Source of the DNA: Paludibacteraceae bacterium
GTDB lineage: Bacteria > Bacteroidota > Bacteroidia > Bacteroidales > Paludibacteraceae
Assembly (NCBI GenBank): GCA_017450685.1
Contig: JAFSTB010000032.1
Coordinates: 1-24,000 of the forward strand
DNA length: 24,000 bases
Direction of reading: 5' to 3'
Part shown: positions 2,920 through 5,435 of the stretch, piece by piece
How positions within the stretch are numbered: the first letter of the stretch is position 1
Layout of the letters: every line of letters starts with the position of its first letter
Notes under the pieces: generated by a model
Told to the model about the DNA's origin: nothing
Databases searched by the model: none
What the model saw: the letters and a program-made list of their open reading frames with translations, nothing else
Made by a program: the position numbers and the translations under genes

Positions 2920-2964
2920 AATTGTGCAAATATTTGCACAATTAAAAATCTCGCCGTACCTTTG
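2920..2964 (+). promoter_or_regulatory. tRNA-Val promoter: 24-bp perfect palindrome overlapping -33, plus -7 box TACCTTTG
   Basis: AATTGTGCAAATATTTGCACAATT at 2920-2943 is a perfect palindrome; its 20-bp core is 2922-2941. The internal TTTG at 2934-2937 lies 19 nt from TACCTTTG at 2957-2964. The tRNA starts at 3007. Confidence 0.6.
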
Positions 2965-3006
2965 CACCCGCTGTCAAGGAAGAATGCTTGTTCTTTCAGC
3001 GGCAAC

Positions 3007-3081
3007 GGGCGAATAGCGCAGCTGGTTTAGAGCATCTGCCCTACAAGCAGAGGGTCGGCGGTTCGAATCCGTCTTCGCCCA
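3007..3081 (+). tRNA. tRNA-Val (anticodon TAC), CCA not encoded
   Basis: Manual cloverleaf. Acceptor GGGCGAA/TTCGCCC is perfect. Anticodon stem is TCTGC/GCAGA with loop CCTACAA. T arm is GGCGG-TTCGAAT-CCGTC. Discriminator is A. Two deviations: C at position 33 and a G12-A23 mismatch in the D stem. Confidence 0.9.
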
Positions 3082-3095
3082 CAACAGAAAATCAA

Positions 3096-3126
3096 GGAGT
3101 TACGTAAACAAACGTACTCCTTTTTT
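3096..3126 (+). terminator. Rho-independent terminator after tRNA-Val
   Basis: GGAGT(T)ACGT 3096-3105 pairs with ACGTACTCC 3112-3120 (9 bp, one bulge), followed by T6 at 3121-3126. Confidence 0.75.
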
Positions 3127-3197
3127 GCTTTTAGTCAGCCTTGTGCTACATTTTTGCTATATCTGCAAAATGCTGAAAATCAAATTTCGGCACGATT

Positions 3198-3242
3198 TTG
3201 TTGCAAATCTTTGCATAAATCAAATTTTTTAGTGTACCTTTG
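3198..3242 (+). promoter_or_regulatory. Promoter for the candidate Y RNA / rsr unit
   Basis: TACCTTTG at 3235-3242. Upstream, TGCAAATCTTTGCATAA at 3202-3218 is a degenerate copy of the TTGTGCAAATATTTGCACAA palindrome, 16 nt from the -7 box. No other -7-like box lies between here and the rsr ATG. Confidence 0.5.
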
Positions 3243-3248
3243 CAGCAC

Positions 3249-3300
3249 AAAGTTGCAAGGACGCAGGCAAACATTGCCGTGTGATAAATAACACAACTTT
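3249..3300 (+). other. 5' hairpin module at the predicted start of the Y-RNA transcript
   Basis: AAAGTTG 3249-3255 pairs with CAACTTT 3294-3300 (7 bp). Inside it is the inner hairpin GGCAA 3266-3270 / TTGCC 3274-3278. The module begins about 7 nt after the -7 box. Confidence 0.4.
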
Positions 3301-3304
3301 ATTT

Positions 3305-3421
3305 AGGAATGGTTGCCGTAGTGAAGAGTTTCATCGGAATTACTGAATCCTTAGTTCGTCAGAACGTCAGGCTAACAACCTGAATCACTCTCTTCACGAT
3401 TGTTGCACCATTCCTTTTTTT
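3305..3421 (+). ncRNA. Candidate Y RNA (YrlA-like) adjacent to the Ro60/TROVE gene
   Basis: The 5' and 3' ends pair into a long bulged stem: AGGAATGGT 3305-3313 with ACCATTCCT 3407-3415; bulged T3314; GC 3315-3316 with GC 3405-3406; three weak pairs; a GAU bulge at 3398-3400; and GTGAAGAG 3321-3328 with CTCTTCAC 3390-3397. The stem encloses about 61 nt with small hairpins, for example TCAGG 3367-3371 / CCTGA 3379-3383 with a 7-nt loop. It ends in T7 (3415-3421), 27 nt before the rsr ATG. Confidence 0.6.
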
Positions 3422-3448
3422 ATTGACCGACCTTTAACCACTGTCCTT

Positions 3449-4987
3449 ATGAACTTCAATTCGCAGTTAAAGCCGCAGGATGTGACGCGCAACCACGAAG
3501 GTGCGATTGCCTACACTATGACCCCGGAGATGGAACTCTATACTGCCATTGTCACCTCTATGCTTAACGACACCTACTATGAGTCGTCCGACGAGCGCGT
3601 AAAACGCATACAAGAACTGGTGGGAAAAGTCAGTCCCCTCTTCGTGGCACAACTTGCCGTCTATGCCCGCAGGGAGATGAACTTACGTTCAGTGCCGCTG
3701 TTGCTGCTCACGCTCTTAGCCAAGGTGAACAGTACCGACACCGCCGATTGGCAGCCTTCTATGTTAGCGCGTGCCATTGAAATGACAGTACTTCGCGCTG
3801 ACGAGATAAGCGAACTGTTGGCGTGCTACCAACTGCTTAATCCGCGTCAGGGAAGGAAGCAACTATCGGGTCTGTCGCATCAGGTGCAGAAAGGTTTGCA
3901 GACATCGTTCAACCGTTTAGACGAGTATCAGTTTGCCAAGTACGACCGTTCCTCGCAGACTGTACGGTTGCGTGACGCACTCTTCCTCGTTCACCCCAAA
4001 GCCAAAGACGAGGCACAACAGCAACTCTTCAATAAGATCGCTTCCCAATCGCTTCAGACACCTTATACTTGGGAAACGGAACTCTCAGAACTGGGAAAGC
4101 AGCCCTTTGACACACCCGAGCAGAAGCAGGCAGCAGTTCGAGCCAAATGGGAAGAACTCATCGACAGCGGCAAACTGGGCTATATGGCACTGCTGCGCAA
4201 CCTAAGAAATATCGTTCAGTCGGAAGTGTCGAAAGAGCGTATAGACAGTATATGTGCGCGGTTAAGCAATAAAGACGAAGTGGCACACAGTAAGCAACTG
4301 CCTTTCCGTTTCTTCTCCGCCTACAAAGAGATGCTGCAAGTGATGTCACCCTACACCTCGCTTATACTCACAGCCTTGGAAGAGGCTGCTAAGGCTTCTG
4401 CACCCAATACCGACCTCTTCGGCAAGAACGACCGTATTCTGCTTGCCTGCGATTTGTCAGGCTCAATGCAACATTCGCTCTCACCTAAAAGCAAAGTGCA
4501 ACTATACGAAGTGGGCATACTGCTCGCTATGCTTATGCAAAACACCTGCCAACAGGTGCAAACAGGCTTGTTCGGGGATATATGGAAACCGGTAAACTTG
4601 CCGCAAACCAATATATTGCAGAATACCAACGATATACGCAAACGCATAGGCGAAGTTGGGTATTGCACCAACGGTTATATAGTGATAGATTGGCTCATTG
4701 AGAACAAGCAGGTGGTGGACAAAGTGATGTTCTTCACCGACTGCCAACTATGGGACGACACTTATACTATTAAGACTGTCGCCAAATCGTGGCAACAGTA
4801 TAAACAGATTGCTCCCGATGCGCGACTCTATATGTTCGATCTTGCAGGCTATGGCGAGAGTCCGCTGCGCTTGATAGGAAAAGATGTGTGCCTCGTTGCA
4901 GGGTGGAGCGAACGTATCTTCCAAATGGTAGAGACAATGGAAAAAGGTGAAGATATAATGACGAAAATAAAACAAGTAAAGATATAA
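3449..4987 (+). CDS. rsr: Ro60-like TROVE domain protein with C-terminal vWA domain (bacterial Rsr ortholog)
   Basis: 512-aa ORF with ATG at 3449. The N-terminal part (TRNHEGAIAY...LNDTYYESSDERV...FVAQLAVYARREMNLR) reads as a TROVE domain. The C-terminal part has a vWA MIDAS motif DLSGS (nt 4451-4465, LLACDLSGSMQ). Confidence 0.85.
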   Translation: MNFNSQLKPQDVTRNHEGAIAYTMTPEMELYTAIVTSMLNDTYYESSDERVKRIQELVGKVSPLFVAQLAVYARREMNLRSVPLLLLTLLAKVNSTDTADWQPSMLARAIEMTVLRADEISELLACYQLLNPRQGRKQLSGLSHQVQKGLQTSFNRLDEYQFAKYDRSSQTVRLRDALFLVHPKAKDEAQQQLFNKIASQSLQTPYTWETELSELGKQPFDTPEQKQAAVRAKWEELIDSGKLGYMALLRNLRNIVQSEVSKERIDSICARLSNKDEVAHSKQLPFRFFSAYKEMLQVMSPYTSLILTALEEAAKASAPNTDLFGKNDRILLACDLSGSMQHSLSPKSKVQLYEVGILLAMLMQNTCQQVQTGLFGDIWKPVNLPQTNILQNTNDIRKRIGEVGYCTNGYIVIDWLIENKQVVDKVMFFTDCQLWDDTYTIKTVAKSWQQYKQIAPDARLYMFDLAGYGESPLRLIGKDVCLVAGWSERIFQMVETMEKGEDIMTKIKQVKI

Positions 4988-5075: not shown

Positions 5076-5435
5076 ATGTTATTGCATATAGTGCGACATA
5101 TGGTCAAATGTGTACTGCCATTGCTTACTATGCTCTTTTTATGCGTATTAGCAGTGGATGAGAGTCGCGATTTTGCGCGTGCTATGCAGGATGTGAGTAT
5201 GGAGATGGCAACAGAGTTGGAGCAATACGATTTAGAGTGGGACGAGGAGAATGATTTGCAAGACGCATCTCAATCTGTCTTTTTTGCAGGTAAACCTTTG
5301 GCAGGTGATATGCATACCAATAATCATCTTCTGTGTACTGACGCCAAGCAGTCGGATAGTCTTAAAAGGGGACAGGTGAGGCGTTATGCACCACGACAAA
5401 TGACCCCAAACAACTATAACTATATCCTTATTTGA
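5076..5435 (+). CDS. Hypothetical small protein with an N-terminal hydrophobic segment and an acidic region
   Basis: The ORF-track start at 5028 is a TTG. The first ATG is at 5076 (MLLHIVRHMVKCVLPLLTMLFLCVLAV..., 119 aa). It is on the same strand as rsr, and the stop codon is embedded in the 5' arm of a strong terminator. No family recognised. Confidence 0.5.
   Translation: MLLHIVRHMVKCVLPLLTMLFLCVLAVDESRDFARAMQDVSMEMATELEQYDLEWDEENDLQDASQSVFFAGKPLAGDMHTNNHLLCTDAKQSDSLKRGQVRRYAPRQMTPNNYNYILI

What the first reader, a model, noticed from the sequence alone, without database searches (positions are those of the whole stretch)
3198..4987. Ro60/TROVE-vWA gene with a hand-foldable Y-RNA-like element immediately upstream, no RtcB/RtcA context
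Seen in the sequence:
- ORF 3449-4987 has TROVE-like N-terminal sequence and a vWA MIDAS motif (DLSGS).
- Nucleotides 3305-3421 form a roughly 22-bp terminal stem from their 5' and 3' ends. It is interrupted by a single-nt bulge, a C-U mismatch and a 3-nt bulge.
- The stem encloses about 61 nt with several small, mutually exclusive hairpins and ends in T7.
- A TACCTTTG -7 box sits at 3235-3242, and rsr has no promoter box of its own.

Established: bacterial Ro60 orthologs (Rsr) bind Y RNAs that are usually encoded next to rsr. Y RNAs have paired termini forming a bulged Ro-binding stem. The bacterial YrlA class carries a tRNA-like second module and tethers Rsr to PNPase. In enterobacteria the locus sits with rtcB/rtcA.

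Inference: this is a Bacteroidales Ro-Y RNA module in a different context, between a tRNA-Val gene and an unknown small ORF, with no RNA-repair genes. I could not convincingly fold the internal module into a tRNA-like shape by hand, so it may be a divergent Y RNA class. The alternative is that the element is a cis-acting leader/attenuator of rsr.
Basis: partly seen in the sequence, partly recalled or inferred. Interest (0 to 1): 0.72.

Follow-up and report, generated by a model that had tools for sequence, protein, structure and literature searches.

The report
Short Y RNA gene leading rsr (Ro60)
The element is a genuine bacterial Y RNA, the small RNA partner of the Ro60-like protein Rsr, encoded in the leader of the rsr gene. 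It belongs to a large Bacteroidota family that public RNA libraries miss, so it is a solid find of a known kind, not a new kind of system.

Summary
ORF 3449-4987 is a TROVE + Ro60-vWA protein (Rsr). Nucleotides 3305-3415 close a 21-bp bulged stem around 61 nt and are followed by T7.

The stem is not chance. In 31 rsr-proximal elements, 90% of pair cells are paired and 15 of 21 pairs show compensatory changes. A covariance model built from them scores the window at 80 bits, with a next best of 12.5. It finds 222 copies in 80 Bacteroidota rsr loci, all on the rsr strand.

The 5' strand carries an invariant UG(C/U)CGUA motif, one base off the YrlA Rsr-binding motif GNCGAA.

About half of the family has tRNA-like T and D arms and gives sub-threshold matches to Rfam YrlA. 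The window's copy belongs to the short, non-tRNA-like class that usually lies 14-41 nt before the rsr start codon.

A bipartite Bacteroidetes promoter (3210-3242) is the only one upstream, so Y RNA and rsr are probably co-transcribed.

Verdict: a new member of a known kind, closest in type to YrlB and Yrn2. The absence of rtcBA is confirmed. Rsr binding and a stable transcript remain untested.

The parts
3210..3242 (+). Bacteroidetes-type bipartite promoter (-33 TTTG at 3210-3213, 21-nt spacer, -7 TACCTTTG at 3235-3242). The predicted start site is near 3249.
   Evidence: The pattern TTTG-N18-22-TAnnTTTG matches 5 times in the window against 0.43 expected, and 0 of 100 shuffles reach 5. All five lie upstream of genes: enolase, tRNA-Val, this unit, tRNA-Ala and the NAD synthase gene. 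In 23 of 44 loci with Y RNAs upstream of rsr (window included) a TAnnTTTG box lies within 150 nt upstream of the first Y RNA my scan detected. Only one locus has a box between the last copy and rsr.
3249..3304 (+). Predicted 5' leader between the start site and the Y RNA. It can form a hairpin (CAAAGUUG...CAACUUUG) and is presumably trimmed off.
   Evidence: Fold of 3245-3425. No close relative was available to test conservation, because the other contigs carrying this gene are identical over the stretches compared. This part is inference.
3305..3415 (+). Y RNA of the short, non-tRNA-like class. The terminal Rsr-binding stem is closed by pairing of the 5' and 3' ends.
   Evidence: Model R1 scores 80.2 bits, E 5e-23, and the next best hit in the window is 12.5 bits. 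Fold z = -3.79. Covariation: 90% of cells paired, 15 of 21 pairs compensatory, 0 of 500 shuffles as high, slid controls 36-62%.
3314..3321 (+). Bulged U3314 plus GCCGUAG, the putative Rsr-contact motif on the 5' strand.
   Evidence: In 140 family members the bulged U, C, G and U positions are each 140/140, G is 138/140 and A is 133/140. The motif differs at one position from the YrlA motif GNCGAAN0-1G (PMC4201824).
3329..3389 (+). Variable apical module of 61 nt. It opens with the conserved single-stranded segment UUUCAUCG (family consensus UUACUUCG), followed by small hairpins at 3334-3345, 3353-3364 and 3366-3382.
   Evidence: MFE structures. Positions U29, C31, U33 and C34 of alignment A2 are kept in at least 139 of 140 members. 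The rest does not align between loci. There is no T- or D-loop motif and no Rfam YrlA hit.
3398..3409 (+). Conserved 3' strand of the Rsr-binding helix, GAUUGUUGCACC.
   Evidence: Alignment A1 has invariant G, T, G and C here. In A2, column 293 is U in 140/140 and G295/C296 are nearly invariant.
3415..3421 (+). U7 tract after the stem (its first U, 3415, is also the last stem pair). Probably a partial intrinsic terminator or the 3' end of the Y RNA.
   Evidence: Read directly from the sequence. It is not a conserved feature of the class: only about 30% of rsr-proximal copies have at least 5 T in the 8 nt after the stem.
3422..3448 (+). A 27-nt spacer to the rsr start codon. It is too short to hold a bipartite promoter and contains TTTAAC at 3433-3438.
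   Evidence: No TAnnTTTG box here. The distance from the last stem pair to the ATG is 34 nt; most sister loci fall in the range 14-41 nt. TTTAA or TTAAA lies within the 45 nt before the ATG, mostly at -25 to -16, in 54 of 79 loci against 25 of 79 in a control window.
3449..4987 (+). rsr, the Ro60 ortholog (TROVE ring plus vWA domain with a DLSGS MIDAS motif).
   Evidence: Pfam TROVE 2.5e-26 and vWA_Ro60 1.7e-10. PDB TROVE-domain proteins 9l5y and 9kop match at E 8e-31. At least 559 relatives were confirmed in Bacteroidota-dominated genomes. The N-terminus MNFN matches the conserved M(K/N)(F/Y)N start.
3007..3082 (+). tRNA-Val(TAC), a neighbouring but separate transcription unit. It has its own promoter at 2933-2964 and a terminator-like hairpin at 3090-3130.
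   Evidence: ARAGORN and Rfam tRNA at 60.4 bits. Promoter pattern. Hairpin followed by a U run.

Best explanation
Nucleotides 3305-3415 encode a bacterial Y RNA, the small noncoding RNA partner of the Ro60 ortholog Rsr.

**Anatomy.** Its paired 5' and 3' ends form a bulged helix. The 5' strand (U-bulge, then GCCGUAG) is the presumed Rsr contact, as in metazoan Y RNAs and bacterial YrlA. The 61-nt apical part is a variable module without a tRNA-like fold, so this is a short Y RNA of the YrlB/Yrn2 type.

**Expression.** The gene sits in the leader of rsr. One Bacteroidetes promoter (3210-3242) most likely transcribes Y RNA and rsr together. The Y RNA would be released either by termination at U7 or by processing. 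Read-through transcripts would supply the rsr mRNA.

**Function.** The RNA is expected to bind Rsr and to stabilise or gate it, and possibly to link it to a partner.

**Shown:** the gene identity of rsr, the conserved and covarying stem, the conserved motif, the strict linkage to rsr in position and strand, and the lack of a tRNA-like domain.

**Inferred:** Rsr binding, a stable small transcript, co-transcription, and the role of U7.
For: **Protein.** It is TROVE plus vWA_Ro60.

**Stem.**
- Fold z = -3.79.
- In 31 rsr-proximal elements, 90% of cells are paired and 15 of 21 pairs have compensatory changes. None of 500 shuffles reaches this, and slid controls give 36-62%.
- In 140 family members, 89.9% of cells are paired and 18 of 21 pairs are compensatory. 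There are 785 double-change cells against 219 +/- 14 in shuffles.

**Linkage to rsr.**
- Model R1 finds one strong hit in the window (80.2 bits).
- It finds 222 hits at E<=1e-3 in 544 kb of 80 rsr loci, every one on the rsr strand.

**Motif.** UG(C/U)CGUA is invariant or nearly so. It is one base from the published Rsr-binding motif GNCGAAN0-1G (PMC4201824).

**Relation to YrlA.**
- Longer sister copies match Rfam YrlA at 25-41 bits.
- Known-type phage loci give 43-44 bits as a positive control.

**Precedent.**
- In M. smegmatis, YrlA and YrlB lie upstream of rsr and are processed from one precursor.
- Sera from lupus patients immunoprecipitated B. thetaiotaomicron Ro60 RNPs that included bacterial Y RNAs, as summarised in review PMC11277228.

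**Promoter.** Evidence.
Against: - There are no expression or binding data for this organism.
- Rfam's Y_RNA and YrlA models do not match the element at all.
- The motif has U where YrlA has A.
- The apical module is hypervariable, which is odd for a specific tether.
- The U7 tract is not conserved in the class, so the way the 3' end forms is uncertain.
- The CM-derived alignment A2 leans towards the modelled structure, although A1 is a plain MAFFT alignment.
Confidence: 0.85

Rival explanations
1. Dual role. The element is a Y RNA and also a cis-acting autoregulatory leader. Rsr would bind the Y-RNA stem in the nascent transcript and change termination at U7, or processing or translation of the rsr mRNA 27 nt downstream. 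This would set the Rsr to Y RNA ratio.
For: - In most of the 27 loci compared the short class ends 14-41 nt before the rsr ATG.
- Genomes with a single Y RNA keep exactly this rsr-proximal copy: the window, L004, L008, L019, L030 and L049.
- No promoter lies between the element and rsr.
- The window's stem plus U7 looks like an intrinsic terminator.
Against: - The U tract is weak or absent in about 70% of proximal copies.
- In Flavobacteriia, Sphingobacteriia and Cytophagia the arrays lie downstream of rsr, so a leader position is not needed for the family's function.
- An alternative hairpin (alignment columns 20-24 with 30-34) is pairable in 86% of cells but shows no covariation beyond shuffles.
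Confidence: 0.2
2. Purely a cis-acting leader or attenuator of rsr, with no stable trans-acting small RNA.
For: It lies in the 5' leader, 27 nt from the start codon, and has a stem followed by a U tract.
Against: - The same stem and motif occur in tandem arrays of 2-8 copies.
- They also occur downstream of rsr in other orders.
- The module is shared with tRNA-like YrlA-type copies.

A dedicated leader would not behave this way.
Confidence: 0.06
3. A degenerate YrlA. On this reading the element is a tRNA-like Y RNA whose T and D arms have decayed, so it is a relic and not a distinct class.
For: - It shares the 5' motif and the UUACUUCG-type segment with the tRNA-like copies.
- There is a weak tRNA-model match of 13.2 bits at 3345-3414.
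Against: - The short class is conserved as a class: 70 of 140 members lack both loop motifs, with a median length of 110 nt.
- It scores highest of all copies with R1, though R1 was built from this class.
- It is the only copy kept in single-copy genomes.
- The 13.2-bit tRNA hit has E of 4-8, which is chance level.
Confidence: 0.05
4. A chance hairpin, or simply the terminator of an upstream unit.
For: A-U rich ends and a U tract.
Against: - z = -3.79.
- 80-bit CM hit.
- Covariation.
- tRNA-Val has its own terminator-like hairpin at 3090-3130, and a promoter lies between the two units.
Confidence: 0.01

Closest known systems
Short bacterial Y RNAs: S. Typhimurium YrlB, M. smegmatis YrlB, D. 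radiodurans Yrn2 (Chen et al. 2013, 2014; PMC4201824)
   Same: - Encoded next to rsr on the same strand.
- The 5' and 3' ends pair into a long stem that carries the Rsr-binding motif.
- No full tRNA-like module.
- M. smegmatis YrlB lies between YrlA and rsr and is cut from a common precursor. This matches the Bacteroidales layout of YrlA-like copies, then the short copy, then rsr.
   Different: [quoted passage not shown] Here the apex is a 61-nt multi-hairpin region.
- YrlB homologs were found only within Salmonella. This class is conserved across Bacteroidales.
- The motif reads GCCGUAG, not GNCGAA.
YrlA (Rfam RF02553, 'Y RNA-like'; reported in more than 250 species and at least 10 phyla)
   Same: - Linkage to rsr and the same strand.
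- Terminal stem.
- A 5' motif one base away from GNCGAAN0-1G.
- A pyrimidine-rich segment after the stem. The family UUAC fits the YUAY that opens the YrlA V loop, but the window has UUUC.
- Sister copies in the same arrays are YrlA-like.
   Different: - No T arm, D arm or acceptor-like stem.
- No RF02553 match at E<=10.
- About 110 nt long, against about 135-150 nt for the tRNA-like copies.
Metazoan Y RNAs (Rfam RF00019)
   Same: - Overall architecture: a bulged terminal helix bound by Ro60, a variable loop region and a 3' U tract.
- A bulged pyrimidine, then a C-G and a G-U pair, as in the GGUCCGA helix (this comparison rests on my own knowledge of Stein et al. 2005).
   Different: - No RF00019 match.
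- Transcribed by the bacterial polymerase as part of the rsr unit, not by Pol III.
- Two extra G-C pairs between the bulge and the CG step.

Membership tests
Y RNA (general: Ro60/Rsr-associated ncRNA) | The 5' and 3' ends pair into a long, bulged terminal stem. | tested here: met
   A 21-bp stem with bulged U3314. Covariation holds in 31 and in 140 homologs.
Y RNA (general: Ro60/Rsr-associated ncRNA) | A conserved Ro/Rsr-binding motif on the 5' strand (GGUCCGA in metazoa, GNCGAAN0-1G in bacteria). | tested here: inconclusive
   GCCGUAG at 3315-3321 has U where the published motif has A, matching 6 of 7 positions. That U is invariant in 140 of 140 Bacteroidota copies, which suggests a clade-specific variant. 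Binding was not tested.
Y RNA (general: Ro60/Rsr-associated ncRNA) | Encoded close to the Ro60 ortholog on the same strand (within 4 kb in Chen et al. 2014). | tested here: met
   The last stem pair lies 34 nt upstream of rsr on the same strand. All 222 family hits are on the rsr strand.
Y RNA (general: Ro60/Rsr-associated ncRNA) | Physically bound by Ro60/Rsr, with accumulation that depends on it. | not testable with these tools
   Needs co-immunoprecipitation or a Northern blot in a Δrsr strain. The only indirect support is a review statement that B. thetaiotaomicron Ro60 RNPs contained bacterial Y RNAs (PMC11277228).
YrlA (RF02553) | A tRNA-like effector domain with conserved T arm, D arm and acceptor-like stem. 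| tested here: not met
   No RF02553 hit at E<=10. The tRNA model gives 13.2 bits with E of 4-8. No T- or D-loop motif. The model does detect phage controls and Bacteroidota long copies.
YrlA (RF02553) | A score at or above the Rfam gathering threshold (69 bits). | tested here: not met
   No hit for the window. Even the tRNA-like Bacteroidota copies reach only 25-41 bits.
Short Y RNA (YrlB/Yrn2 type) | An Rsr-binding stem without a complete tRNA-like module, encoded beside rsr, often alongside a YrlA. | tested here: met
   The stem and motif are present and the T/D module is absent. In sister loci it follows YrlA-like copies. In this window it is the only copy.
Short Y RNA (YrlB/Yrn2 type) | [quoted passage not shown] | tested here: not met
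   The apex is a 61-nt region with two or three small hairpins, not one long hairpin.
Rsr / Ro60 (the protein) | A TROVE HEAT-repeat ring plus a C-terminal vWA domain with a MIDAS motif. | tested here: met
   Pfam TROVE 2.5e-26 and vWA_Ro60 1.7e-10. DLSGS in the translation.

The most novel reading that the evidence does not exclude
The short rsr-proximal element defines a distinct Bacteroidales Y RNA subfamily with three features:
- a GNCGUA variant of the Rsr-binding motif;
- a conserved UUACUUCG segment;
- a hypervariable apex with no tRNA mimicry.

It would also serve as an Rsr-responsive attenuator in the rsr leader, so that the protein controls its own synthesis through its RNA partner.
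Probability: 0.2. Interest if true: 0.6.

Novelty: new member of a known kind. Interest (0 to 1): 0.42.

Why it matters
**Annotation gap.** Y RNAs next to bacterial Ro60 genes are established biology. Even so, no paper in the searchable library describes them for Bacteroidota. Rfam's YrlA model stays below its threshold on every Bacteroidota copy tested, so annotation based on Rfam's gathering thresholds will not call them.

**Usable products of this work.**
- A working covariance model (R1).
- A clear family picture: 1-8 copies per rsr locus, in two structural classes.
- A clade-specific form of the Rsr-binding motif.

**Medical link.** Ro60 orthologs of gut Bacteroides have been linked to anti-Ro60 autoimmunity in lupus, and their RNPs are reported to contain Y RNAs (PMC11277228). 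Knowing which RNAs these proteins carry is therefore of practical interest.

**Open question made testable.** The short class occurs alone in some genomes, including this one. That offers a simple system for asking what a Y RNA does without a tRNA-like effector domain.

Tried and rejected
- **Rfam on the window.** Neither gathering thresholds nor E<=10 on 3083-3460 and 3243-3448 gave a Y_RNA or YrlA hit. This is not a library gap, because RF02553 exists and detects phage controls.
- **tRNA-likeness of the apex.** The only signal is a 13.2-bit tRNA match at chance E-value. Rejected.
- **Regex stem finders.** The first version ignored the bulge and gave messy results. It was replaced by a bulge-aware scan and then by the covariance model.
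- **Alternative hairpin.** The 5' strand of the inner stem could pair with UACUUC. It is pairable in 86% of cells but shows no covariation beyond shuffles (174 of 500 shuffles as high). Inconclusive.
- **U tract as a class feature.** Not conserved.
- **Strain-level variation.** Two other contigs carrying the identical protein are 100% identical to the window over the stretches compared, including the Y RNA. They give no information.
- **An upstream in-frame start (ATGTTTAAC).** Rejected. The N-termini align at the annotated ATG.
- **Whether Chen et al. 2014 listed Bacteroidetes.** The supplement is not held. Greiling et al. 2018 (PMC5918293) is not held either.
- **Conservation of the apical module.** Even the most similar copies (L013, L061) do not align beyond the first 10 nt or so.
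Full report
**1. Checking the observation**

ORF 3449-4987 encodes a 512-aa protein. It matches Pfam TROVE (E 2.5e-26) and the Ro60-specific vWA domain (E 1.7e-10). The MIDAS motif DLSGS can be read in the sequence. The nearest solved structures are the TROVE-domain proteins 9l5y and 9kop (E 8e-31).

Nucleotides 3305-3421 fold to -35.1 kcal/mol with z = -3.79, and none of 200 shuffles folds as well. The terminal stem has 21 pairs:
- 3305-3313 with 3407-3415
- bulged U3314
- 3315-3316 with 3405-3406
- 3317-3318 with 3401-3402, across a UU bulge
- a UA/GAU internal loop
- 3321-3328 with 3390-3397

The stem encloses 61 nt, and T7 follows at 3415-3421 (its first U, 3415, is also the last stem pair).

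**2. Promoter and context**

TACCTTTG at 3235-3242 has a TTTG 21 nt upstream. The bipartite pattern TTTG-N18-22-TAnnTTTG occurs five times in the window against 0.43 expected, and 0 of 100 shuffles reach five. All five lie in front of a gene: enolase, tRNA-Val, this unit, tRNA-Ala and the NAD synthase gene. No -7 box lies between 3243 and the rsr ATG.

tRNA-Val (3007-3082) is a separate unit with its own promoter and a terminator-like hairpin at 3090-3130.

The window also encodes enolase, a PrsW protease, a 119-aa ORF with no Pfam match, a PepSY-like protein, a Na/Pi cotransporter with PhoU domains, and polysaccharide-synthesis genes. It has no RtcB, RtcA or other RNA-repair gene among the ORFs submitted to Pfam.

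**3. Comparative evidence**

A scan of one genome per species returned at least 559 Rsr relatives. The best 80 loci are nearly all labelled Bacteroidota, at 52-59% identity. The upstream regions of most Bacteroidales loci showed the same element at once: 5' GGTTGCCGTAGTGAAGAG, a variable middle, then CTCTCCACGCCTGTCGCACCGTTTTT.

I made a MAFFT alignment of 31 rsr-proximal copies, window included (A1). With the window's stem imposed:
- 90.0% of pair cells are paired;
- 15 of 21 pairs carry compensatory double changes;
- no shuffle of 500 reaches the observed values for percentage paired, pairs and cells with double changes, or the covariation score;
- sliding the 3' partners by 1-3 columns drops pairing to 36-62%.

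A covariance model built from A1 (R1) gave these results:
- In the window it finds one strong match, 3303-3421 at 80.2 bits, and nothing else above 12.5 bits.
- In the 80 loci (544 kb, both strands) it finds 222 matches at E<=1e-3, all on the rsr strand.
- On 140 of these aligned to the model (A2), 89.9% of cells are paired and 18 of 21 pairs are compensatory. There are 785 double-change cells against 219 +/- 14 in shuffles, and slid controls give 44-50%. A2 is fitted to the model, so it leans towards the structure. A1 is not fitted.

**4. What the family looks like**

Layout differs by order. Bacteroidales carry 1-6 copies upstream of rsr, and in most loci the last copy ends 14-41 nt before the ATG. 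Flavobacteriia, Sphingobacteriia, Cytophagia and Chitinophagia carry 2-8 copies directly downstream of rsr.

Conserved positions across the 140 members:
- Bulged U, 140/140.
- Then G (138), C or U, C (140), G (140), U (140), A (133) and G or A. This gives UG(C/U)CGUA(G/A).
- After the inner stem, U-A-C-U-U-C-G, with U, C, U and C kept in at least 139 of 140.
- The 3' strand is also conserved (...CG..UGU.GC).

There are two structural classes:

| Class | Members of 140 | Median length | Rfam YrlA |
|---|---|---|---|
| T-loop and D-loop motifs both present | 43 | 149 nt | those tested score 25-41 bits, below the 69-bit gathering score |
| Neither motif | 70 | 110 nt | the rsr-proximal short copies tested give no match |

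The window's copy belongs to the short class. It is the only copy in the window. Five other loci show the same single-copy state within the 3 kb flanks fetched: L004, L008, L019, L030 and L049.

**5. Controls on the negative Rfam result**

Rfam 15 does contain YrlA (RF02553). In Gordonia phage Trax and Streptomyces phage Kradal it matches just upstream of the annotated Ro-like genes, at 44.1 and 43 bits. The absence of any match in the window at E<=10 therefore reflects a real absence of the tRNA-like module, not a missing model. The 13.2-bit tRNA match at 3345-3414 has E of 4-8 and is chance.

**6. Comparison with what is known**

Chen et al. 2014 (PMC4201824) established the following:
- Bacterial Rsr binds Y RNAs encoded within a few kb on the same strand.
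- YrlA carries a GNCGAAN0-1G motif and a tRNA-like domain.
- In M. smegmatis, YrlA and YrlB lie upstream of rsr and come from one precursor.

YrlA-like RNAs were reported in more than 250 species of at least 10 phyla. I could not verify whether Bacteroidetes were among them, because the supplement is not held. A review reports that lupus sera immunoprecipitated B. thetaiotaomicron Ro60 RNPs that included bacterial Y RNAs (PMC11277228). The primary paper is not held. No paper in the searchable library combines YrlA with Bacteroid*.

The window's element meets these Y RNA criteria: terminal bulged stem, linkage to rsr and same strand. It nearly meets the motif criterion, with GCCGUAG against GNCGAAG. 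It fails the YrlA-specific criterion of a tRNA-like domain. It is best filed as a short Y RNA of the YrlB/Yrn2 type, although its apex is a multi-hairpin region and not a single long hairpin.

**7. How it most likely works**

*Shown:* the conserved, covarying Rsr-type helix next to rsr; one upstream promoter; no room for a promoter in the 27-nt spacer.

*Inferred:*
- Transcription starts near 3249 and a leader of about 55 nt is removed.
- The Y RNA ends at or near U7, by termination or processing.
- Read-through yields the rsr mRNA.

The hypervariable apex argues against a sequence-specific tether. It suggests that the conserved UUACUUCG-type segment and the helix carry the function.

A dual role as an Rsr-responsive attenuator is possible, and I put it at about 0.2. 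For it: the copy position is tightly fixed, and this is the copy retained in single-copy genomes. Against it: the U tract is not conserved, other orders place their arrays downstream of rsr, and the candidate alternative hairpin shows no covariation.

**8. Verdict**

The element is a real Y RNA of a known kind in a lineage where such RNAs are not modelled by Rfam. It is a new member, not a new system. Interest is moderate. The value lies in the family-wide picture and the working model, not in a surprise about mechanism.

Noticed in passing
L067 about 2863-2883 (87 nt upstream of its corrected rsr ATG), and the equivalent position in L029, L031, L046, L051, L059, L063-L066 and L069-L080. Absent from the window.: A perfect inverted repeat, CTGCGCA-N7-TGCGCAG, lies 60-190 nt upstream of rsr in at least 25 non-Bacteroidales Bacteroidota loci. 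It sits just 5' of the xCTTTG -7 box. It looks like the operator of an unidentified repressor of rsr.
   Followed up: partly
window 3433-3438 (TTTAAC), and -25 to -16 relative to the rsr ATG in the loci: TTTAA or TTAAA, usually within a (G/C)TTTAAC motif, lies in the 45 nt before the rsr start codon, mostly at -25 to -16, in 54 of 79 loci against 25 of 79 in a control window. It occurs whether the Y RNAs are upstream or downstream. It is non-coding. Its function is unknown, and AT-richness is a partial confound.
   Followed up: partly
L002 2652-2725, L011 236-310, L013 2442-2518, L015 2698-2772, L020 2566-2643, L023 2695-2769, L032 2500-2572, L036 2508-2580, L040 2667-2741, L044 1884-1956: A standalone tRNA-Met(CAT) gene sits among or beside the Y RNA copies near rsr in at least 12 Bacteroidales loci, in several within a few nucleotides of a neighbouring Y RNA. 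This suggests tRNA and Y RNA are co-transcribed and processed together. In the window the neighbouring tRNA is Val(TAC) with its own promoter.
   Followed up: partly
L082 (Bacteroides phage crAss001) 4443-4538, 4539-4626, 4624-4767: Directly downstream of the phage TROVE gene gp96, in a 900-nt stretch with no annotation, R1 gives 25.8 bits (E 5e-6) and 15.5 bits. These hits carry a UUACUUC segment. Rfam's tRNA model matches a 144-nt stretch at 46.6 bits. These are candidate crAss-like phage Y RNAs.
   Followed up: partly
L081 2571-2687; L083 2731-2839; L012, L013, L015, L028, L068, L075: Rfam's YrlA gathering score (69 bits) misses every YrlA-like RNA seen here. Actinophage copies score 43-44 bits and Bacteroidota tRNA-like copies 25-41 bits. 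Annotation based on Rfam's gathering thresholds will not call them.
   Followed up: yes
window 2925-2966 and 3202-3244: The tRNA-Val promoter and the Y RNA/rsr promoter are near-copies of each other: TGCAAAT(A/C)TTTGCA, an AT-rich spacer, then TACCTTTGCA. This suggests a strong tRNA-type promoter drives the Y RNA.
   Followed up: no
L021 about 2800-2960 and L014 about 2900-2960: Tandem repeats of CTAGAA(C/T)TTC fill the space between the last Y RNA and rsr in two Prevotella-type loci. They take the place of the short Y RNA.
   Followed up: no
window 5076-5435: A 119-aa ORF directly downstream of rsr has no Pfam match. Gene callers call it in the other contigs that carry this locus. Any link to rsr was not examined.
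   Followed up: no
L068 4974-6056; L043 4545-5895; L013 2125-2992 and 4542-4807: Some genomes carry very large Y RNA arrays, with 7 or 8 R1 hits beside one rsr. L013 and L042 embed them in long tRNA gene arrays.
   Followed up: no
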